From UHGV virus genome UHGV-0198106: a DNA stretch of 64,000 nt; one strand, given 5' to 3'. The DNA comes from a virus. Position numbers and translations under genes: made by a program. Shown one piece after another: positions 3,911-59,356 of this stretch (within the stretch, counting starts at the first letter, position 1; every line of letters begins with the position of its first letter). A model generated the notes under the pieces. That model ran no database searches and was not told the origin of the DNA. It saw only the letters and a program-made list of their open reading frames with translations.

Positions 3911-4129
3911 ATGAAAATGATGAAACAAGCTGTATACGGTTTAGTGTGTCTAAGTGCAGGTGTTGTGGTATCTACCGCAGTTCCTGTAGGCGCAGTTCAC
4001 CCATTAGTAACTGTCCCTGCTCAGGTAGAGAAGCTTAGTTCTCAGTGCAAGCAGAGGACAATTCAGAATAATTTAGTCGTTATTTGTCCTGATGCTGAAT
4101 CTAACGCTCTGAGAAAGATACTACCTTAA
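3911..4129 (+). CDS. small secreted/membrane protein (possible lysis accessory)
   Basis: 72 aa with hydrophobic N-terminus (VYGLVCLSAGVVVSTAV); immediately upstream of the lysozyme gene. Confidence 0.4.
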   Translation: MKMMKQAVYGLVCLSAGVVVSTAVPVGAVHPLVTVPAQVEKLSSQCKQRTIQNNLVVICPDAESNALRKILP

Positions 4130-4159
4130 TTTAAAGGGATTACAAAAAGGAGGTTAGAA

Positions 4160-4651
4160 ATGGACAACGCCGCATTGCCACCTGTACAGCTAAACTTAAG
4201 CCCAGCTGGAATGGAATTCATCATGAAGCATGAGGGTATGAGAACCAAAGCTTATAAAGATTCCGCAGGTATCTGGACGATATGTGTAGGGGCTACGCGC
4301 GACATGAATGGGTATCCGGTTAGACAAGGATTAACGTATTCTATAGAGGATTGTCTAGCTCTGCTAGATAGAGACACGCAAGACTCTGTTCGTGCTACTC
4401 AGAAGAACATAAAGGTTCCTTTGTTAGTTCATGAGTTTGATGCGCTCACTTCTTTCAACTTCAATGTTGGTAGTGGGGCTTTGAGCACATCTAAGCTAAG
4501 AAAGGTTATCAATGGAGAAGTGAAAGGTGATGTTTATTCCGAATTTCTTCGTTGGGATAAGATAACGGTCAAGGGAGAGAAGCAGAGAAGTCAGGGTCTT
4601 CATAACAGAAGGGTTGCAGAAGCTGATCTTTATACCGAAGGTAAATATTAA
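4160..4651 (+). CDS. lysozyme, glycoside hydrolase family 24 (phage lysozyme)
   Basis: AAAGGAGG then ATG; sequence FIMKHEGMRTKAYKDSAGIWTICVGATRDMNG... matches the lambda R / P22 gp19 lysozyme family pattern. Confidence 0.85.
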   Translation: MDNAALPPVQLNLSPAGMEFIMKHEGMRTKAYKDSAGIWTICVGATRDMNGYPVRQGLTYSIEDCLALLDRDTQDSVRATQKNIKVPLLVHEFDALTSFNFNVGSGALSTSKLRKVINGEVKGDVYSEFLRWDKITVKGEKQRSQGLHNRRVAEADLYTEGKY

Positions 4652-8484: not shown

Positions 8485-9453
8485 ATGGGTGCTGGTGGCT
8501 TTCGTAAGAATACCGGAAGAAACAACACAACACAACCTTATAGTGTGGGCTTTCTAAACACCTCTGAGAGTGTAGAAACTAATAACGTTGCAATATATGA
8601 TGAACTCCAGAATATTAGTACTGCAACTAATCAAATGTTCCAAGCTATAGATGAAATCCATGAGGAGATTGATGTTCGTATTAAAGCCCTTCATGCTATG
8701 AATTTGCAATTCGATGAACTAGAGAACCGTGTTACGACAGAGATTGAGACTGCCATTGCAGATATCATAACACAAATGGGTAATCTATCCACCGATGATA
8801 TTTGGGATAATTCGGTTAGCCCTCCTGTCAAATTGGATTCAACTATGTCTGGTATTAAGACTTCAATAGAAGGCAATACGGCATCTATTCAAACTGTTGA
8901 AGGTATCGTCAATGATCAAGGACAAGAGATTGCCCTTATTCAATCTGATTTAACGAATGGGACAGGTAGTGCTTCTCAGTATATGAAACTAACTGAGTAT
9001 GAAGCTACTTGGGGTGTTAATTCCACAGTAAATGGTAAGACAGCAGGGGTAAAGTTAACAAACAATGGATCTATAAGCCAATTCCAAGTAACAGCTGATA
9101 AGTTTGTGGTATCTGATGGCACATCAGGAAGTACACCATTCAAGGTTGAGAACGGTAGGGCTGTTATGGAGTTTGCTGACATTACTAACGTAGTTATCAC
9201 CTCTGCTCAAATTGCAACTGCGACTATTGAGTGGGGACAGATTACTAATGTATCAATAACCAACGCTCAGATCCAAAGTCTATCAGCGGATAAAATAACA
9301 GCCGGTACAATGTCAGGGACTAACTGGAGATTCACCGTTGGTGGTGATTTTGTTATGGGTGGTACAGGTGGGGCACAGTTGTGGATGAATGGAAACAGAA
9401 TAGACTTCTACGATGGAAGTGGTGCTCTGAGAATTAGAATAGGGAGTTGGTAA
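8485..9453 (+). CDS. virion structural protein (fibre-like)
   Basis: TAAGGAGG then ATG; internal short repeats (ITNVVITSAQI / ITNVSITNAQI); Gly-rich C-terminus. Confidence 0.45.
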   Translation: MGAGGFRKNTGRNNTTQPYSVGFLNTSESVETNNVAIYDELQNISTATNQMFQAIDEIHEEIDVRIKALHAMNLQFDELENRVTTEIETAIADIITQMGNLSTDDIWDNSVSPPVKLDSTMSGIKTSIEGNTASIQTVEGIVNDQGQEIALIQSDLTNGTGSASQYMKLTEYEATWGVNSTVNGKTAGVKLTNNGSISQFQVTADKFVVSDGTSGSTPFKVENGRAVMEFADITNVVITSAQIATATIEWGQITNVSITNAQIQSLSADKITAGTMSGTNWRFTVGGDFVMGGTGGAQLWMNGNRIDFYDGSGALRIRIGSW

Positions 9454-9454
9454 T

Positions 9455-10486
9455 ATGGCATATGGAATATGGGCACAACCAGTAGGGCCGGGGCCAGCAA
9501 CCCCTGCTCCCTTATTTATTGATAGCGGAAGTACTTTCCCTCAGTTCAAGAATAGTATAAGAGGGAGTTTTAACTTTAATGGAGCTGGGAGATCTTTCCC
9601 TATTAGTGGATGGGATGGTAGTGGTCAGATAATTATTGTCCCCACTGGTTCTCTGTGCTGGCAATGGGAAGTCCCTCCTAACTTAGTCCCTGATGTTTAT
9701 TGTGTAAATAACATCTATGTAGAAAATGCCTCATCTTTTAGGGTTACTCTGAACCAGAATCCTGGCAGTAACCCCCTGTTTGATTGTGGGTTCAACGTTT
9801 ATCAAATTTGGCCTAGAGCTGATAGGAATTACGGAATCACTTTCTCAAATACAGCAGACTATTTTTCCATATCAGATGCTGGAGTTGTTGGTCAATGTAT
9901 TTGGGCTTGGCAGGGGGTCATAAACAATGCCCTTCAGATACCAAATATCGGTGGGTTCAATATGGCAAACGCTGTTGTGTTCGCTAACTGGTCTGATGGA
10001 GGTCTTGGCCTGTCTTACACATCTGATGACAGAGTTATTCGTGTCTACCAGAACAGACCTTACGTAAACGGCAACACTAATGAGGGTGGTTCAGTGTTTG
10101 CTAGAGTTGCAGTATTCTGCAATGGGGCAGGGGTTCCGGAACATAATGGAGGTTTGAATATCTACTCTCCGGGTACCACACAATGTGTCTTCTCTACTAA
10201 CAGAACACCTTTCACTGTGGATACTTTTATAGGCTCAGGAGGTGGTAACACTGGAATGTCATACCCCATGATACCTCTTACCTCTGGAATAGGTGCAATA
10301 AAAGGCCAAGGCAGTGGATGGAGATATCAGCAAATGAGATCTCACACCATGAGTGGTTCTGCGATAGGAACTGGCTATGGAAGGTATCTGTTTCAGTGGG
10401 ATCAAAATTACGACCTAGGAGCTGACACTGTAGTTAATTTATCGGTTCCTGTAATAAATGCAGCTAAGGTTTTTGCTGGACTATAA
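9455..10486 (+). CDS. virion structural protein
   Basis: ATG 1 nt after the upstream stop (coupled); Gly/Asn/Ser-rich beta-type composition; position in virion module. Confidence 0.45.
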   Translation: MAYGIWAQPVGPGPATPAPLFIDSGSTFPQFKNSIRGSFNFNGAGRSFPISGWDGSGQIIIVPTGSLCWQWEVPPNLVPDVYCVNNIYVENASSFRVTLNQNPGSNPLFDCGFNVYQIWPRADRNYGITFSNTADYFSISDAGVVGQCIWAWQGVINNALQIPNIGGFNMANAVVFANWSDGGLGLSYTSDDRVIRVYQNRPYVNGNTNEGGSVFARVAVFCNGAGVPEHNGGLNIYSPGTTQCVFSTNRTPFTVDTFIGSGGGNTGMSYPMIPLTSGIGAIKGQGSGWRYQQMRSHTMSGSAIGTGYGRYLFQWDQNYDLGADTVVNLSVPVINAAKVFAGL

Positions 10487-21201: not shown

Positions 21202-22372
<1,171 letters not shown>

Positions 22373-22615
22373 AATGCATCTCTTTATAAACAGTTTCCGT
22401 GTTCTTCTTCCAGTCGGATAAACCAGTAAGAACCCTCTGAGCAACTTCATCAGCTGCCTTACTTCTTTCAATCTCTAACTCTTGTTGATGCTTCTCTTTA
22501 TCAAGATTGTTACTGTCTGTTCGGTATTCATTGAACTTCATACCTCCAAAGAACACGAGAGCAGAGAAGATGATAAAACCTACATTATCACTTAATGTAC
22601 TTTTCATATTGTCTC

Positions 22616-22643
22616 CAACGAAAAAAGCCACCCGAAGGTGGCT
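22616..22643 (-). terminator. rho-independent terminator
   Basis: On minus strand AGCCACC-uucg-GGUGGCU then UUUUUCG; directly downstream of the SSB-like gene. Confidence 0.8.
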
Positions 22644-49631: not shown

Positions 49632-49928
49632 TCACTCCTTACCGGTTGTTTTTACTGAGCCACCACACCACAACGCTGTGTCAATCACAACATTGTCTGG
49701 CGTAGATTTCTCTTCGTTGATAGACGGGTTAGCATTAGAGCAGGTTGCTCCGTTCCAGCGCATATCAATTTCACCAGAAGGAACCTTCTCACCCTTATGC
49801 CAGCGAGAAACACAAACACCTTCCACTGCTACTGCACACCATCCATCAGGACGGCTCTGTACGCAGCCTGTAAGGACCACACAGACAAGGAAGATACAGA
49901 TTAAGGATATTACACCACCCCAACTCAT
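49632..49928 (-). CDS. Cys-rich lipoprotein (paralog 1)
   Basis: Signal peptide with lipobox LTGC; RPDGWCAVAVEGVCVSRWHKGEKVPSGEIDM... paralogous to the 57573..57902 product. Confidence 0.55.
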   Translation of the reverse strand: MSWGGVISLICIFLVCVVLTGCVQSRPDGWCAVAVEGVCVSRWHKGEKVPSGEIDMRWNGATCSNANPSINEEKSTPDNVVIDTALWCGGSVKTTGKE

Positions 49929-49940
49929 AACTACCTCATT

Positions 49941-50456
49941 CTATTTAGTTAACCAAAAACCTTTCGGCTTTTTAACAACACCAAGAATCCTACATCTCTT
50001 ATGGACAGCCGAATCACTAACACTCAGTAACCTCCCTACTACATACACGGGGTAAATGTCTATTAAAGACTGAAGAGATTCTTTTGTTATTTCAAACCGT
50101 CTGCTATCTAATTTGGCACAAAGCTGTGAGCAAAACCTTTGGTTGCTATTCTCTGAAACAAGGTAAATCTCTCCACAAAAAGAACATAACCTTTCTTCCA
50201 TGACAGCCCCATGATGGTGCCTGCTATGCTCCTCATAAGTCATGATTTCTAAATTAGATGGTTCGTTGTTTAACTTATTCTCATCCTTGTGATGAACCAC
50301 TAGGTCAGAGTTCAGTTCGACACCGTAGAAATTTTGAGCAACATATCTATGAACATACACCTTTCCAGCTTTATTGGCCATAGGGTGTGTTGGTTGGTAC
50401 ACATACAAATAACCAACACCTTTATCAACAACTGCTTTACTTAGATCTAGCTTCAT
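49941..50456 (-). CDS. HNH homing endonuclease
   Basis: HNH_3 motif VHHKDENKLNNEPSNLEIMTYEEH plus C-terminal Cys cluster. Confidence 0.7.
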   Translation of the reverse strand: MKLDLSKAVVDKGVGYLYVYQPTHPMANKAGKVYVHRYVAQNFYGVELNSDLVVHHKDENKLNNEPSNLEIMTYEEHSRHHHGAVMEERLCSFCGEIYLVSENSNQRFCSQLCAKLDSRRFEITKESLQSLIDIYPVYVVGRLLSVSDSAVHKRCRILGVVKKPKGFWLTK

Positions 50457-50830: not shown

Positions 50831-51103
50831 TTAGTTTTCCCATTTTCCTAGATATAGACAATATATTCTACCACCGTCCGGATATGTTTTGGTATGAGCT
50901 TCAGCTAAAGAGGCACATGCATAGTAAGAAAGTTCTTGTGAGCTTCTTTTTACGGAGAATAGCATATTATCTGCTGTATGTGGCTCTGACCTGAAACCTC
51001 CGTACCAAAACCCAGAACTTTCATAGTCACTTTTGTAGATACTCTCCCTTTCCTTACAGCCAAATGCAGAGATAAGACACACTAGGATTATAAGCTTTTT
51101 CAT
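50831..51103 (-). CDS. secreted protein / lipoprotein candidate
   Basis: N-terminal MKKLIILVCLISAFGC signal; start overlaps the stop of the upstream small ORF (ATGA). Confidence 0.45.
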   Translation of the reverse strand: MKKLIILVCLISAFGCKERESIYKSDYESSGFWYGGFRSEPHTADNMLFSVKRSSQELSYYACASLAEAHTKTYPDGGRIYCLYLGKWEN

Positions 51104-52311: not shown

Positions 52312-52701
52312 TTATTCCCTAGAGCTGTTATCGAACACTAAATCACCACAATACATAGGATTGGCATACCATTTTGGCACCCCTTCGCTCTTACTCTGAA
52401 AGTAAGTCCCACTGTACAGCGGAACATAATTCTTCTTAAGGGCACGTTTAGCTAGCCGCTCGCTTTCTCCAATGGCTTGCTTAGTCATCGGATTTTTATC
52501 ACGAATCAGCTTTACATAACGTTTATAAGGTTTCTCCTGTTTTAATAGTACCGGAATCCACTCAAACTGGTTCTTTTGTCTTATCACCTGTTCAGCGGTC
52601 AGTTTTCGTTGGGCCATTCTATTTATCACGGTATCCGCAACCATAGCTTTACATGCGGTTGGCTGATTCCCTGCCTCATAATAAATAGTCAATGTCAACA
52701 T
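52312..52701 (-). CDS. SleB-type cell wall hydrolase (Hydrolase_2 family)
   Basis: TIYYEAGNQPTACKAMVADTVINRMAQ ... QFEWIP matches the SleB-family conserved core. Confidence 0.6.
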   Translation of the reverse strand: MLTLTIYYEAGNQPTACKAMVADTVINRMAQRKLTAEQVIRQKNQFEWIPVLLKQEKPYKRYVKLIRDKNPMTKQAIGESERLAKRALKKNYVPLYSGTYFQSKSEGVPKWYANPMYCGDLVFDNSSRE

Positions 52702-57202: not shown

Positions 57203-57475
57203 TCACTCTTCTTCATTACTACCCTCGACAAAAAATGCTATACTGATCTGTTCCACTTCTTCCAGCGATAGAAGAATCCCACGTTGAGCTAAATACTTCC
57301 CAATAGTGAGATAATCTTGCACTAAATAGACCGCAGGAAAGCTAATGGTTTTTATCTCACCTTTCGTAAGAAAAGACAAATAAGCATAGTCGATTGACTC
57401 ATCAAAGGAGAGCGTAACGCCACCGTAATTATGCGTATCAATCAGCGCAATAGTTTCATTACCCATTGGTATCAC
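57203..57475 (-). CDS. hypothetical protein
   Basis: Track ORF, 90 aa. Confidence 0.4.
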   Translation of the reverse strand: MIPMGNETIALIDTHNYGGVTLSFDESIDYAYLSFLTKGEIKTISFPAVYLVQDYLTIGKYLAQRGILLSLEEVEQISIAFFVEGSNEEE

Positions 57476-57572
57476 ACTCCCAAAACAATTAAGAAATAGT
57501 AAGCAATTGCAGTAGCAATCACCGTGAAAATCAAAGATAACAAAGTAGAACTGGTATTACAAACCCTTCTTT

Positions 57573-57902
57573 TTAAATGTCCCATTCTTTACCCTTAGTG
57601 GAAGTGTTGCCACCGCAATGAGTTGCTCGGGAAATAAAGTCTGACTTCTTCCAATCAGCTTGTGTTTTCATATCACGCTCACGATAGGCCTTCTCATCAA
57701 CAGATCCACCATTAGAGCAACTAGCACCTTCGTACTTCATATCAATCTCACCAGCAGGAACCTTAACACCATCTTTCCAACGCATCACACAAGTGCCCTC
57801 AACTTCCAGAGCACACCAACCATTGGGACGCGGAGAAGAAGAGCATCCTACAGTTGAGAGAACAGCTACAGATAAAAGAGCAGATGCAATCAGAGTTTTC
57901 AT
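57573..57902 (-). CDS. Cys-rich lipoprotein (paralog 2)
   Basis: Signal with lipobox-like TVGC; RPNGWCALEVEGTCVMRWKDGVKVPAGEIDM... parallels the 49632..49928 product. Confidence 0.55.
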   Translation of the reverse strand: MKTLIASALLSVAVLSTVGCSSSPRPNGWCALEVEGTCVMRWKDGVKVPAGEIDMKYEGASCSNGGSVDEKAYRERDMKTQADWKKSDFISRATHCGGNTSTKGKEWDI

Positions 57903-57969
57903 TGTCTTGATTCCTTTAGTGTTGTCTTAATGAGGTAACAATACTGCCAATCTATAACCGTGTCAACTA

Positions 57970-58449
57970 TTATTTTGCTTTAACACAATCACCCATCTGA
58001 AAGCGGAAAGTCCAAATACTGTTATCTTCCCCACTGTAGACAGAGGTGGCTAACATGGTTTCTTGCATTGTGCCATATGTTACCAGATTAGTCACAACTT
58101 TAGAACCTTTAATAGTCTGCACATCGCCAAAAGTAATCAACTCTGGGTCATTGTCTTTACGGGAAAGCAGAATATCCTCATTATTCTGGTTGTCAAGTGT
58201 ACGAGTAGACAATACCATGCCACGATTGGTTACGTTAGATAATTTAACTTTCATCAACGTAGTGACATTATCTGAATCCAATCCTTTACAAACCAGCCAA
58301 CCTTTAGGGGCGTTGCTAACGAAGGTGTCAGCAGCATCACTCATGACTACAGCAGCTTGAGCAACTGGAGCACTAGCAATCTTGTCAGCGATAGCCATGC
58401 TACCGAAGGTTAATACCAGAGCACCGATTACAAAGTTTGCCTTATTCAT
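57970..58449 (-). CDS. secreted (periplasmic) protein
   Basis: N-terminal signal peptide MNKANFVIGALVLTFGSMAIA; 159 aa. Confidence 0.5.
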   Translation of the reverse strand: MNKANFVIGALVLTFGSMAIADKIASAPVAQAAVVMSDAADTFVSNAPKGWLVCKGLDSDNVTTLMKVKLSNVTNRGMVLSTRTLDNQNNEDILLSRKDNDPELITFGDVQTIKGSKVVTNLVTYGTMQETMLATSVYSGEDNSIWTFRFQMGDCVKAK

Positions 58450-58515
58450 GATTGATTCCTTTAGTTGGTATGCTTCGTTTCAATGAGATAAATATATTTC
58501 TTACTACCTAACATG

Positions 58516-58701
58516 TCAACAATTAATTTCAACTTTCTTACTACTAAACTGAGCACCATCAAACTTGCTTGGTTTATCAACTACTTCTAATCTTTTGTCA
58601 GTGAACAACTCAACCACTTCACTAACAATCAGAGCAAGTAAAGGAAGCACTACAGCTATTACCATCATTACTAAGATTATCATCTCTACTACTCCAACCA
58701 C
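58516..58701 (-). CDS. small single-TM protein
   Basis: 61 aa; hydrophobic stretch MIILVMMVIAVVLPLLALIV. Confidence 0.4.
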   Translation of the reverse strand: MVGVVEMIILVMMVIAVVLPLLALIVSEVVELFTDKRLEVVDKPSKFDGAQFSSKKVEINC

Positions 58702-59356
58702 TCAATCGATAGATTCAATTTACCACTACCTGATAAGGAAAGCAAGCCCACGGGTAAACTATTTCTACTATCTATATAGGACGGGGACATACAACCGCAG
58801 GACAGACCACGGGGAAAGGTAGCTAGATAGTGCGGTAGTAATATACCACTTAAATAATCATCAACTCATAAAAGAAAAAGACCAACAGAACGCTGAAAAA
58901 AGAAAGGAATAAAAGAAATTATTAAAAGAAATACAATCATCCACTTAATTAATACATACATCATTATTGCACTCATAATCATTACATTTAGAATCATTTA
59001 CATTCAAACTATGGGGGCTTGTGACTATTACTCATGGGCATTATATCGCCTCAATCTATTGGTACAGTGGAAGACTAGCCTCTCATCCACTCTTTAAAGG
59101 GGAACTAAATAAACGGGTAGGTAATGTATTGGGTAGTATACACGGGGAAAGAATAACGGGGAGTAGGCACGGGGAAAGGTTGGAACGTGGAAGGAGGTGT
59201 AAAGGCATTGCCAATAACCCTTTTTTAAATGAGGACTCCCCCTTTTTAGGAAACGCGCGGGAAGCGGCTAGCCCCACTCGGTCAAATCAGGATTTTAAAC
59301 TCTTATATATAACTATGGAGGGTTTAATTACGGGATTGGATACTGCACATGAAGTA

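What the first reader, a model, noticed from the sequence alone, without database searches (positions are those of the whole stretch)
49632..49928. Two paralogous Cys-rich lipoproteins (49632..49928 and 57573..57902)
Seen in sequence: both proteins have lipoprotein-type signals (LTGC / TVGC) and share the core RP[DN]GWCA[VL][AE]VEG[VT]CV.RW..G.KVP.GEIDM...A.CSN...CGG...T.GKE with conserved cysteines. They lie ~8 kb apart in the early region. Established knowledge: phage lipoproteins made early often mask receptors or block superinfection. Inference: a duplicated superinfection-exclusion or host-envelope-modifying function.
Basis: partly seen in the sequence, partly recalled or inferred. Interest (0 to 1): 0.55.

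Follow-up and report, generated by a model that had tools for sequence, protein, structure and literature searches.

The report
Two receptor-blocking phage lipoproteins
This phiEco32-like coliphage carries two diverged early genes for small outer-membrane lipoproteins of the Rtp45 family, whose solved member plugs the LptDE lipopolysaccharide exporter from the periplasm so that phages cannot dock; together with a matching receptor-binding gene, this suggests these podoviruses use LptD as their final receptor.

Summary
Both ORFs are real (minus strand, 98 and 109 aa) and have lipoprotein signals. They are 40% identical (E 8e-24) and share four conserved mature-region cysteines.

Both belong to Pfam PF24052. 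Both match Rtp45 (PDB 9RPS chain D), the superinfection-exclusion lipoprotein solved bound to the periplasmic face of LptDE (E 5e-14 and 5e-21). An AlphaFold model of copy 2 finds Rtp45 as its only real structural match.

Copy 1 is the standard Kuravirus gene (orthologue of phi32_106). Copy 2 is not a local duplicate. Its core belongs to another clade, synonymous sites between the copies are saturated, and it sits in a 1.3-kb variable slot with its own conserved sigma-70-type promoter. It is under purifying selection (dN/dS 0.13). None of 97 sequenced relatives has two copies; two metagenomic lineages do.

Following the lead outward, the late gene after the tail needle (9455..10486, usually annotated "membrane protein") falls in the same family (DUF6453, phrog_1265) as the LptD-binding receptor protein of phage Oekolampad. 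This predicts LptD as the terminal receptor of Gordonclarkvirinae. I found no paper saying so. Against it, SU10 proteomics did not detect this protein.

The parts
49632..49928 (-). Copy 1: Rtp45-family (PF24052) lipoprotein, 98 aa. It occupies the canonical Kuravirus locus and is the orthologue of phiEco32 phi32_106. Lipobox LTGC; mature cysteines C31, C39, C63 and C88.
   Evidence: ORF. Pfam 1.2e-34. PDB 9rps_D E 4.8e-14. 94-96% identical to the single copy of MN05, NJ01 and ev_rybdy3, and 75.5% to phiEco32. dN/dS 0.12 against L006.
57573..57902 (-). Copy 2: a second, divergent Rtp45-family lipoprotein, 109 aa. Lipobox TVGC; C30 and C38 have the same numbering as the Rtp45 disulfide. C62 and C96 flank a loop of about 33 aa.
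   Evidence: ORF. Pfam 7.6e-31. PDB 9rps_D E 5.2e-21. AF2 model pLDDT 84; Foldseek top hit 9rps_D, prob 1.00, TM 0.78 normalised to the target. dN/dS 0.126 against L006. The core clusters away from canonical Kuravirus alleles.
57938..57966 (-). Sigma-70-type promoter-like site (TTGACA-17-TATTGT). Its -10 element ends 36 nt upstream of the copy 2 start codon.
   Evidence: Conserved as TTGACA-17-TATTAT in the diverged lineage L006.
57907..57920 (-). Leader and Shine-Dalgarno element ACTAAAGGAATCAA in front of copy 2. An identical copy lies in front of the 159-aa ORF at 58452..58465.
   Evidence: 2 matches in the window, 0.08 expected by chance.
57502..57523 (-). Terminator-like hairpin about 50 nt after the copy 2 stop codon (weak consensus).
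57970..58449 (-). Neighbour in the same variable slot: a 159-aa signal-anchored periplasmic protein. It is 47% identical to the C-terminal half of phi32_128 (290 aa). It has its own promoter-like site at 58491..58519 (TTGACA-17-TATATT, 11 of 12).
57467..58780 (.). Variable slot at the promoter-proximal end of the early operon. It has no DNA-level match to phiEco32 or Bas91, which carry phi32_127 and phi32_128 here. It holds copy 2 and the 159-aa ORF.
9455..10486 (+). Late gene for a 343-aa protein (orthologue of SU10 gp19 and Bas91_0015, usually annotated 'membrane protein'). It is in the same family as the LptD-binding RBP of Oekolampad and is the candidate cognate receptor-binding protein.
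   Evidence: Pfam DUF6453 5.3e-23, 82 bits against cutoff 25, near full length. phrog_1265 1.5e-106, the same PHROG as RBP_Oeko and the TheodorHerzl RBP. The only PDB hit is 9rpt_C, E 8e-9. BLASTP 5e-13.
8485..9453 (+). Tail needle (SU10 gp18 orthologue). Its C-terminal half carries the lambda-J-type Phage_Tail_Tip domain that also ends the siphovirus J proteins upstream of the LptD RBP genes.
   Evidence: 7z4b_EA E 1e-171. PF09327 3e-21, aa 160-304. The same domain is in the Oekolampad and TheodorHerzl J proteins, 8e-39 and 2e-39. Direct BLASTP is not significant.

Best explanation
Both genes encode small lipoproteins that are exported, lipidated and sorted to the inner leaflet of the outer membrane. 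There they bind the LptDE lipopolysaccharide translocon from the periplasmic side, as Rtp45 does. A disulfide-stabilised N-terminal core docks at the base of the LptD barrel. A long beta-hairpin reaches up the barrel lumen and displaces extracellular loops, so that LptD-directed phage receptor-binding proteins can no longer insert. Made from host-RNAP promoters early in infection, the proteins would protect the infected cell, and later its debris, from further adsorption. This is superinfection exclusion by receptor blocking.

Copy 1 is the standard Kuravirus allele. Copy 2 is an additional, horizontally acquired allele. It has a different core and a longer tip loop, and it is expressed from its own promoter at the head of the early operon. 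It would add an earlier, stronger or broader block.

Shown here: family membership, homology to Rtp45, a predicted fold match for copy 2, purifying selection on both copies, promoter conservation, and a cognate-type RBP gene in the same genome.

Inferred: LptDE binding by these two proteins, the exclusion phenotype, and what the second copy adds.
For: Pfam PF24052 at 118 and 106 bits against cutoff 27. phmmer against PDB hits 9rps_D (Rtp45) at 4.8e-14 and 5.2e-21, aligned from the signal peptide through the hairpin. The C-x7-C pair coincides with the Rtp45 Cys30-Cys38 disulfide. The AF2 model of copy 2 (pLDDT 84) has 9rps_D as its only meaningful PDB match: prob 1.00, TM 0.78 normalised to the target, all 53 modelled residues aligned with a gap of about 32 residues where the extra loop sits. 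The Rtp45 mechanism is taken from PMC12685063. In Dhillonviruses the homologue lies next to an LptD-type RBP. The same genome encodes a DUF6453/phrog_1265 protein after a needle with a J-type tip domain. 97 Gordonclarkvirinae records carry the lipoprotein gene and 99 carry the gp19 gene, one copy of each per record. The early class is taken from the phiEco32 literature. Copy 2 has its own conserved sigma-70-like promoter. dN/dS is 0.12-0.13 for both copies. The two-copy layout recurs in independent metagenome contigs and in a lineage diverged to 89%. The +2 residues are not Asp. The lipoprotein was not found among SU10 virion proteins.
Against: No binding or exclusion data exist for any Kuravirus member. 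Identity to Rtp45 in the core is only 54-62%, and the strand that pairs with LptD (Rtp45 residues 30-35) differs in sequence. Kuravirus proteins carry an extra disulfide-bounded loop absent from Rtp45, whose effect on binding is unknown. In Kuraviruses the gene is not adjacent to the RBP gene, unlike in Dhillonviruses. The literature assigns Kuraviruses O-antigen plus possibly LPS core as receptors, not LptD. The Rtp45 paper reports that AF3 failed to predict Rtp45 alone and its LptDE complexes, so structure predictions in this family need caution. Copy 1's signal peptide lacks a basic n-region.
Confidence: 0.7

Rival explanations
1. Heterotypic exclusion only. The proteins bind LptDE, but Kuraviruses themselves do not use LptD. 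The lipoproteins would then protect the infected cell from competing LptD-dependent siphophages (Dhillonvirus, Rtp-like, Webervirus-like) rather than from the phage's own kind.
For: BASEL II infers O-antigen plus LPS core, via the short fibres, as Kuravirus receptors. gp19 was the only product of the gp16-24 tail and ejection cluster not detected in SU10 Orbitrap proteomics, and it is not discussed in the SU10 structure paper. Lipoprotein loop type and gp19 allele class reassort freely.
Against: Every Gordonclarkvirinae genome keeps a full-length DUF6453/phrog_1265 gene directly after a needle with a J-type tip domain, mirroring the siphovirus J-RBP pair. A low-copy tip protein can escape detection. 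Free reassortment is expected anyway if the lipoprotein acts on the receptor rather than on the RBP.
Confidence: 0.2
2. Host takeover by inhibiting LptDE. Occupying the LptD lumen would stop LPS and O-antigen export, remodelling or weakening the outer membrane. Exclusion would be a by-product.
For: The Rtp45 hairpin lies in the LptD lumen. The genes are expressed early. The window's early region also encodes other envelope-directed proteins: an early SleB-type hydrolase, a periplasmic 159-aa protein and an orphan lipoprotein.
Against: Rtp45 was co-produced in excess over overexpressed LptDE by leaky T7 expression, and the cells could still be grown for purification, so it is not overtly toxic. 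In siphoviruses the family is genetically tied to RBP loci, which points to receptor masking.
Confidence: 0.06
3. Lysis function: the lipoproteins are o-spanins (Rz1-like).
For: They are small outer-membrane lipoproteins with cysteines. There is a weak PHROG hit to an Rz-like spanin that covers the signal peptide only (E 0.42).
Against: The window has its own overlapped spanin pair: the i-spanin at 22257..22631 and an o-spanin ORF within 22112..22471 carrying the lipobox TSAC. It also has a late holin and endolysin at 3911..4648. Neither lipoprotein gene is next to an i-spanin gene. The predicted fold is beta-rich and Rtp45-like.
Confidence: 0.02
4. Copy 2 is a redundant passenger or a decaying duplicate with no function of its own.
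For: None of the 97 sequenced relatives needs a second copy.
Against: dN/dS is 0.126 at dS 0.51 between two lineages. All four cysteines and the lipobox are intact. Its own promoter is conserved.
Confidence: 0.02

Closest known systems
Rtp45 of coliphage Rtp (PDB 9RPS chain D; Pfam PF24052), and SE_Oeko (bas18_0026) of Oekolampad
   Same: Same Pfam and PHROG family. Same lipoprotein signal. Same C-x7-C disulfide position. The hairpin motif CV.(K/R)W..G..VP.GE(I/V)D.(R/K)Y.G and the C-terminal G(K/R)EW strand are conserved. The predicted fold of copy 2 matches the solved chain. Expected target: LptDE from the periplasmic side.
   Different: Kuravirus proteins are longer (mature about 77-90 aa against about 60). 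They carry a second invariant cysteine pair closing a hypervariable loop of 18-34 aa inserted between the two long strands. They are encoded in the early region of a podovirus, about 40 kb from the candidate RBP gene, instead of next to it. Here they are present twice. No experiment exists for them.
T5 Llp (FhuA-blocking early lipoprotein)
   Same: A functional analogue: a small early lipoprotein that binds the periplasmic face of the phage's outer-membrane receptor and abolishes RBP binding.
   Different: No sequence relationship was detected: PF24052 was the only Pfam family at E<1, and Rtp45 was the only significant PDB sequence match. The target differs (FhuA, a TonB-dependent transporter), and so does the mechanism (long-range allostery rather than physical loop displacement).
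Cor-type exclusion lipoproteins of T1, phi80 and N15 (from my own knowledge; not tested here)
   Same: Small outer-membrane lipoproteins encoded by phages that block their own receptor.
   Different: Their target is FhuA. No similarity appeared in any search run here.
o-spanins (lambda Rz1 type)
   Same: Small phage-encoded outer-membrane lipoproteins with cysteines.
   Different: Spanin genes lie with or inside an i-spanin gene and act at lysis. This phage has a separate spanin pair elsewhere.

Membership tests
Rtp45-type superinfection-exclusion lipoproteins (Pfam PF24052 / phrog_4281) | Sequence membership above the curated threshold | tested here: met
   118.5 and 106.4 bits against gathering score 27. 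phrog_4281 at 8.6e-34 and 6e-29.
Rtp45-type superinfection-exclusion lipoproteins (Pfam PF24052 / phrog_4281) | Significant similarity to the experimentally solved member (9RPS chain D) | tested here: met
   E 4.8e-14 (copy 1) and 5.2e-21 (copy 2), aligned over residues 2-70.
Rtp45-type superinfection-exclusion lipoproteins (Pfam PF24052 / phrog_4281) | SPase II signal with a lipobox and outer-membrane sorting (no Asp at +2) | tested here: met
   LTGC|V and TVGC|S. Judged by pattern only. Copy 1's n-region lacks a basic residue.
Rtp45-type superinfection-exclusion lipoproteins (Pfam PF24052 / phrog_4281) | Conserved cysteine pair corresponding to the Rtp45 Cys30-Cys38 disulfide | tested here: met
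   C31/C39 in copy 1 and C30/C38 in copy 2. Invariant in all 40 aligned family members.
Rtp45-type superinfection-exclusion lipoproteins (Pfam PF24052 / phrog_4281) | Rtp45-like fold with a long beta-hairpin | tested here: met
   Copy 2 AF2 model, pLDDT 84. Foldseek against PDB: 9rps_D prob 1.00, TM 0.78 normalised to the target; all other hits E>5. Copy 1 was not modelled.
Rtp45-type superinfection-exclusion lipoproteins (Pfam PF24052 / phrog_4281) | Gene adjacent to the cognate RBP gene downstream of gpJ (siphovirus arrangement) | tested here: not met
   The genes lie in the early region, about 40 kb from the DUF6453 gene at 9455..10486. The arrangement is also unlinked in Klebsiella Weberviruses, so adjacency is typical of the family rather than defining.
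Rtp45-type superinfection-exclusion lipoproteins (Pfam PF24052 / phrog_4281) | Physical binding to LptDE and exclusion of LptD-dependent phages | not testable with these tools
   Requires co-purification or cryo-EM, and plating or adsorption assays.
LptD-binding RBPs of small siphophages (Pfam DUF6453 / phrog_1265), for the linked gene 9455..10486 | Family membership over the full length | tested here: met
   PF20051 at 82 bits against cutoff 25, profile positions 15-289 of 291. phrog_1265 at 1.5e-106, positions 1-332 of 332, the same PHROG as RBP_Oeko. 9rpt_C is the only PDB hit, E 8e-9.
LptD-binding RBPs of small siphophages (Pfam DUF6453 / phrog_1265), for the linked gene 9455..10486 | At least 30% identity to RBPs of known LptD specificity (the threshold used in the 2026 receptor-screen preprint) | tested here: not met
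   23-29% identity to siphovirus members. Specificity could therefore differ.
LptD-binding RBPs of small siphophages (Pfam DUF6453 / phrog_1265), for the linked gene 9455..10486 | Presence in the virion at the tail tip | tested here: inconclusive
   Not among the 34 proteins in SU10 proteomics, although gp16-18 and gp20-24 were detected. Absent from the SU10 structure paper. Gene order and the J-type tip domain on the needle argue for it.
o-spanins | Encoded with or within an i-spanin gene and needed as the phage's outer-membrane lysis component | tested here: not met
   A separate overlapped i-/o-spanin pair lies at 22112..22631.
T5 Llp family | Sequence or profile similarity to Llp | tested here: not met
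   No such Pfam or PDB hit at E<1.

The most novel reading that the evidence does not exclude
The whole subfamily Gordonclarkvirinae (phiEco32- and SU10-like podoviruses) uses the essential LptDE translocon as its terminal receptor or entry gate. The overlooked gp19 protein (DUF6453/phrog_1265) would ride on the J-like C-terminal domain of the tail needle and insert into LptD. The Kuravirus-specific, disulfide-stapled hypervariable loop at the tip of the exclusion lipoprotein's hairpin would be the part that meets the incoming RBP inside the LptD lumen. Carrying two lipoproteins with different cores and tip loops would then widen or tighten exclusion against rival LptD-dependent phages.
Probability: 0.4. 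Interest if true: 0.7.

Novelty: new variant of a known kind. Interest (0 to 1): 0.55.

Why it matters
The proteins belong to a family whose mechanism was solved only in 2025, and only for siphoviruses. Finding the family conserved in a large, therapeutically used group of E. coli podoviruses has two consequences. It gives a concrete function to a gene labelled 'putative lipoprotein' since 2008. With the matching DUF6453 gene, it also turns the open question of the Kuravirus terminal receptor into a simple test: plating on known lptD loop mutants and on cells expressing these lipoproteins. LptD is essential and hard to lose, so LptD-dependent podoviruses with broad host range would matter for phage-therapy design and cocktail compatibility, because cross-exclusion with LptD-dependent siphophages would be expected. 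The naturally doubled exclusion gene offers a pair of alleles for asking what the variable loop does.

Tried and rejected
1. Allele coupling. I suspected that the lipoprotein loop type is matched to the gp19 allele class, and that the window phage gained copy 2 to repair a mismatch. Cross-tabulating searches shows each loop type with several gp19 classes. For example, the copy-1 type occurs with the 97%, 70%, 60% and 45% classes. The idea is rejected.

2. Spanin role. Rejected because a separate overlapped spanin pair and a late holin and endolysin are present.

3. Recent in-genome duplication. Rejected because dS between the copies is saturated (1.67) and copy 2's core clusters with a different clade.

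4. 'Copy 2 sits in the native slot used by distant SU10-like phages.' Only loosely true. In L010-L012 the gene follows the phi32_124 homologue, not the phi32_128 homologue.

5. Single-sequence AlphaFold of gp19 gave pLDDT 30 and is unusable. No deeper alignment could be submitted, so no fold search was run on it.

6. Direct BLASTP of the needle C-domain against the Oekolampad J C-terminus is not significant (E 0.1-0.2). That link rests on Pfam PF09327 profile hits only.

7. Copy 1's hits to designed armadillo-repeat proteins and the 966-aa repeat protein P0025 are summed weak repeat matches and are spurious.

8. The word-indexed homologue search returned few proteins. The exhaustive search showed the family really is small, with 16 clusters at 50% identity.

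Full report
OBSERVATION. The window is a phiEco32-like podovirus (genus Kuravirus, subfamily Gordonclarkvirinae). The region 49000-58500 matches phiEco32, SU10, Bas91 and about 100 relatives at roughly 88-91% identity over the 71-76% of it that aligns. Each has a lipoprotein-type signal with a lipobox (LTGC and TVGC) and a non-Asp +2 residue, which implies outer-membrane sorting. Each has four further cysteines.

WHAT THE PROTEINS ARE. Both score well above the curated threshold for Pfam PF24052, 'Phage lipoprotein family' (118 and 106 bits against 27), and for phrog_4281. Against all PDB sequences the only significant hit of either protein is 9rps_D, at E 4.8e-14 for copy 1 and 5.2e-21 for copy 2. 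The alignment runs from the signal peptide to about residue 66-70.

That chain is Rtp45, the superinfection-exclusion lipoprotein of siphophage Rtp, solved in complex with LptDE. It sits at the periplasmic side of LptD near strands 5-8, sandwiched between LptE and LptM. It has a Cys30-Cys38 disulfide and sends a long beta-hairpin up the LptD lumen. That displaces extracellular loop 4 by up to 20 Å, so the phage RBP cannot bind (PMC12685063). Our C-x7-C pair (C31/C39 in copy 1, C30/C38 in copy 2) coincides with that disulfide. The segment CV.(R/K)W..G..VP.GE(I/V)D.(R/K)(Y/W).G is the best-conserved part of the family.

An AlphaFold2 model of copy 2, built from a 25-sequence alignment, is confident (mean pLDDT 84) and beta-rich. 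Foldseek against the PDB returns 9rps_D as the only meaningful match: probability 1.00, TM 0.78 normalised to the target, all 53 modelled residues aligned. Every other hit has E>5.

The family is small. An exhaustive profile search of 1.84 billion representative proteins found 16 clusters, one of them a spurious repeat protein.

KURAVIRUS-SPECIFIC FEATURES. Compared with Rtp45-like proteins of siphoviruses (two mature cysteines, 73-83 aa precursors), the Kuravirus-type proteins have a second invariant cysteine pair: C63/C88 in copy 1 and C62/C96 in copy 2. The pair encloses a loop that varies strongly in length and sequence: about 18 aa in the phiEco32 type, 24 aa in copy 1, and 33-34 aa in copy 2 and the SU7 type. 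A conserved C(G/S)G...G(K/R)EW strand follows.

In the model the two cysteines lie on the paired long strands 51-65 and 93-106, and the loop forms the tip. The Foldseek alignment has a gap of about 32 columns there. If this hairpin is the one that enters the LptD lumen in Rtp45, the variable loop is the part nearest the extracellular loops and the incoming RBP. That is my inference from the paper's description, not something shown here.

THE TWO COPIES ARE NOT A SIMPLE DUPLICATION. Copy 1 occupies the canonical locus and is the orthologue of phi32_106. It is 94-96% identical to the single copy of MN05, NJ01, ev_rybdy3, YF01 and others, and 75.5% identical to phiEco32. Among 97 Gordonclarkvirinae records every genome has exactly one copy. 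Across all 378-386 phage records with the family, only one Klebsiella phage record shows two places, one of them at the very start of the record.

Copy 2 lies in a 1.3-kb slot (57467-58780) with no DNA match to phiEco32 or Bas91, where those phages carry phi32_127 and phi32_128. Its best match in sequenced phages is only about 70%, to the long-loop SU7/ECBP2-type alleles, and only over residues 25-107.

Over the Rtp45-aligned core, all canonical Kuravirus alleles are at least 95% identical to each other. Copy 2 is 64-67% identical to them and 62% to Rtp45. It clusters with a separate four-cysteine clade (P0016-P0020) carried by more distant SU10-like phages. Synonymous divergence between copy 1 and copy 2 is saturated (dS 1.67). 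Copy 2 is therefore a horizontally acquired, mosaic allele.

Copy 2 is functional by the usual criteria. The identical protein occurs on four metagenome contigs of the same phage. An 89% variant occurs, with the same two-copy layout, in a diverged lineage (L006). dN/dS between the lineages is 0.126 at dS 0.51, against 0.121 for copy 1.

EXPRESSION. The right-hand, leftward-transcribed cluster of phiEco32 is the experimentally defined early class, transcribed by host sigma-70 RNA polymerase (PMC8948821). Copy 1 has no promoter-like site within 1.5 kb and is presumably read through from upstream.

Copy 2 has TTGACA-17-TATTGT, with the -10 element ending 36 nt before its ATG. The 159-aa ORF upstream has TTGACA-17-TATATT. 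The two sites belong to a repeated promoter-leader cassette (TTGACA-N17-TATNNT...CTCATT...ACTAAAGGAATCAA...ATG) that occurs exactly twice in the window, against 0.15 and 0.08 expected by chance. The copy 2 cassette is conserved in L006, with an even better -10 element, TATTAT. A weak hairpin follows the stop codon. Copy 2 thus looks like an autonomous immediate-early unit at the head of the early operon. These are consensus matches, not transcript data.

FOLLOWING THE LEAD: A COGNATE RBP-TYPE GENE. In Dhillonviruses the homologous lipoprotein gene sits directly beside the RBP gene, between the J-like tail tip gene and the lateral fibre gene (TheodorHerzl and Oekolampad). The TheodorHerzl RBP is of the LptD-binding type (E 3.3e-41 to RBP_Oeko, 9rpt_C). 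I therefore searched the window with RBP_Oeko and found a significant match at 9797-10390 (E 4.4e-9).

The match lies inside the 343-aa ORF 9455..10486. That ORF is the orthologue of Bas91_0015, which is annotated 'membrane protein', and by gene order it is SU10 gp19. It meets Pfam DUF6453 at 82 bits (cutoff 25) over nearly the whole profile. RBP_Oeko and the TheodorHerzl RBP are in the same Pfam family. All three fall full-length in phrog_1265, at 1.5e-106, 2e-122 and 7e-99. Its only PDB sequence hit is 9rpt_C (8e-9). Pairwise identity is low at 23%.

The gene immediately upstream (8485..9453) is the SU10 tail needle gp18 (7z4b_EA, 1e-171). Its C-terminal half carries the Phage_Tail_Tip domain PF09327. 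The same domain ends the siphovirus J proteins, to which these RBPs are thought to attach. The window phage therefore has all three parts of the siphovirus LptD module: a J-type tip domain, a DUF6453 RBP and a PF24052 lipoprotein. The lipoprotein has moved to the early region. Klebsiella Weberviruses also keep the lipoprotein gene about 10 kb from the DUF6453 gene.

Ninety-nine Gordonclarkvirinae records carry gp19 as a single copy, in allele classes of about 97%, 88%, 70%, 60% and 45% identity to the window's protein.

WHAT THE LITERATURE SAYS. BASEL II describes Gordonclarkvirinae as strictly O-antigen dependent. By analogy with T-even phages, it proposes that the short fibres bind the LPS core. 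LptD is mentioned there only for Dhillonviruses. Searches for LptD with Kuravirus, and a 2026 preprint reporting 1,050 receptor screens, gave no link between these podoviruses and LptD.

The SU10 structure paper never mentions gp19 in its text or its held supplements. It does propose that the needle contacts the outer membrane and triggers nozzle formation.

There is counter-evidence. SU10 Orbitrap proteomics detected every product from gp11 to gp24 except the holin, the endolysin and gp19. gp19 is therefore not an abundant, stably bound virion protein in that preparation. The lipoprotein was not detected in virions either, which fits a non-structural role.

MECHANISM AND RIVALS. The best-supported reading (confidence about 0.7) is that both proteins are periplasm-facing outer-membrane lipoproteins that bind LptDE as Rtp45 does and block LptD-dependent phage binding.

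Whether the excluded phages include the Kuravirus itself depends on whether LptD is its receptor. I put homotypic exclusion somewhat ahead of purely heterotypic exclusion (0.2). My reasons are the universally conserved gp18-gp19 pair, weighed against the proteomics result.

An LptDE-inhibition or host-takeover role (0.06) is less likely. Rtp45 was produced in excess alongside overexpressed LptDE, and the cells could still be grown for purification. The spanin idea is refuted by the separate spanin pair at 22112..22631. The idea that copy 2 is decaying is refuted by the selection data and promoter conservation.

What the second copy adds is not resolved. It could be earlier and higher expression, or a broader exclusion spectrum through a different core and tip loop. 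My hypothesis that loop type is matched to gp19 allele class was tested and rejected, because the types reassort freely. Free reassortment is what one expects if the lipoprotein acts on the receptor.

NOVELTY AND VERDICT. The family and its mechanism are known, and copy 1 has been annotated 'putative phage lipoprotein' since the phiEco32 record. Three things are new here. First, the named target, obtained by homology. Second, the four-cysteine, loop-bearing podovirus variant encoded apart from the RBP gene. Third, the naturally doubled state, with a horizontally acquired, independently promoted second allele: none of 97 sequenced relatives has it, and two metagenomic lineages do. I rate this a new variant of a known kind.

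The lipoprotein together with gp19 predicts LptD as the terminal receptor of Gordonclarkvirinae. That prediction is directly testable and was not found in the literature searched. I score overall interest at 0.55.

Noticed in passing
window 9455..10486 (+): The 343-aa late gene after the tail needle is annotated 'membrane protein / moron' in many Kuravirus records. It is a full-length member of DUF6453/phrog_1265, the family of the LptD-binding RBP of Oekolampad. The PHROG label 'membrane protein' is probably a propagated mis-annotation.
   Followed up: yes
window 50831..51103 (-): A third early ORF (90 aa, MKKLIILVCLISAFGC...) has a lipoprotein-type signal and two further cysteines. It has no Pfam or PHROG hit, no tblastn match in 50,697 phage records and no PDB match, so it is an orphan candidate envelope protein.
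   Followed up: partly
window 52312..52701 (-): A SleB-type cell-wall hydrolase (PF07486, 129 aa) is encoded in the early region. It is separate from the late endolysin at 4160..4648 and is conserved in relatives (99% identical in L006).
   Followed up: no
window 57970..58449 (-): The 159-aa protein consists of a signal anchor plus a periplasmic domain, 47% identical to the C-terminal half of phi32_128 (290 aa). The N-terminal cytoplasmic half present in phiEco32 and Bas91 is missing here. It has its own strong sigma-70-like promoter and shares the variable slot with copy 2.
   Followed up: partly
window 57900..57966 and 58447..58519 (-): A promoter-leader cassette (TTGACA-N17-TATNNT..CTCATT..ACTAAAGGAATCAA..ATG) is repeated exactly twice, once in front of each gene of the variable slot. 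This suggests the slot is built from modular, self-promoted early gene units.
   Followed up: partly
window 49941..50456 (-), and the whole window for tRNAs: An HNH homing endonuclease gene lies immediately upstream of copy 1. The tRNA-Arg that precedes the lipoprotein gene in phiEco32 and Bas91 is absent: ARAGORN finds no tRNA anywhere in the window.
   Followed up: partly
window 22112..22631 (-): The spanin pair is overlapped. The o-spanin ORF, as annotated in Bas91 (57 aa, starting MPLPTNL...), lacks its signal peptide. The window ORF shows an upstream in-frame start, [20 protein letters not shown], with a proper lipobox, so the Bas91 start is probably mis-called.
   Followed up: partly
L010-L012 (metagenome contigs, 49-100 kb), gene at 10001..10264: A more distant group of SU10-like phages (SU10-type portal) carries an 87-aa four-cysteine PF24052 lipoprotein directly after the phi32_124 homologue. 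The exclusion gene therefore occupies at least three different slots of the early operon across SU10-like phages.
   Followed up: partly
window 49632..49736 (copy 1, C-terminal 35 aa): The C-terminal segment of copy 1 gives summed weak hits to designed armadillo-repeat proteins in the PDB (whole-sequence E down to 7e-9, each stretch insignificant). This is a repeat-summing artefact, not homology.
   Followed up: yes
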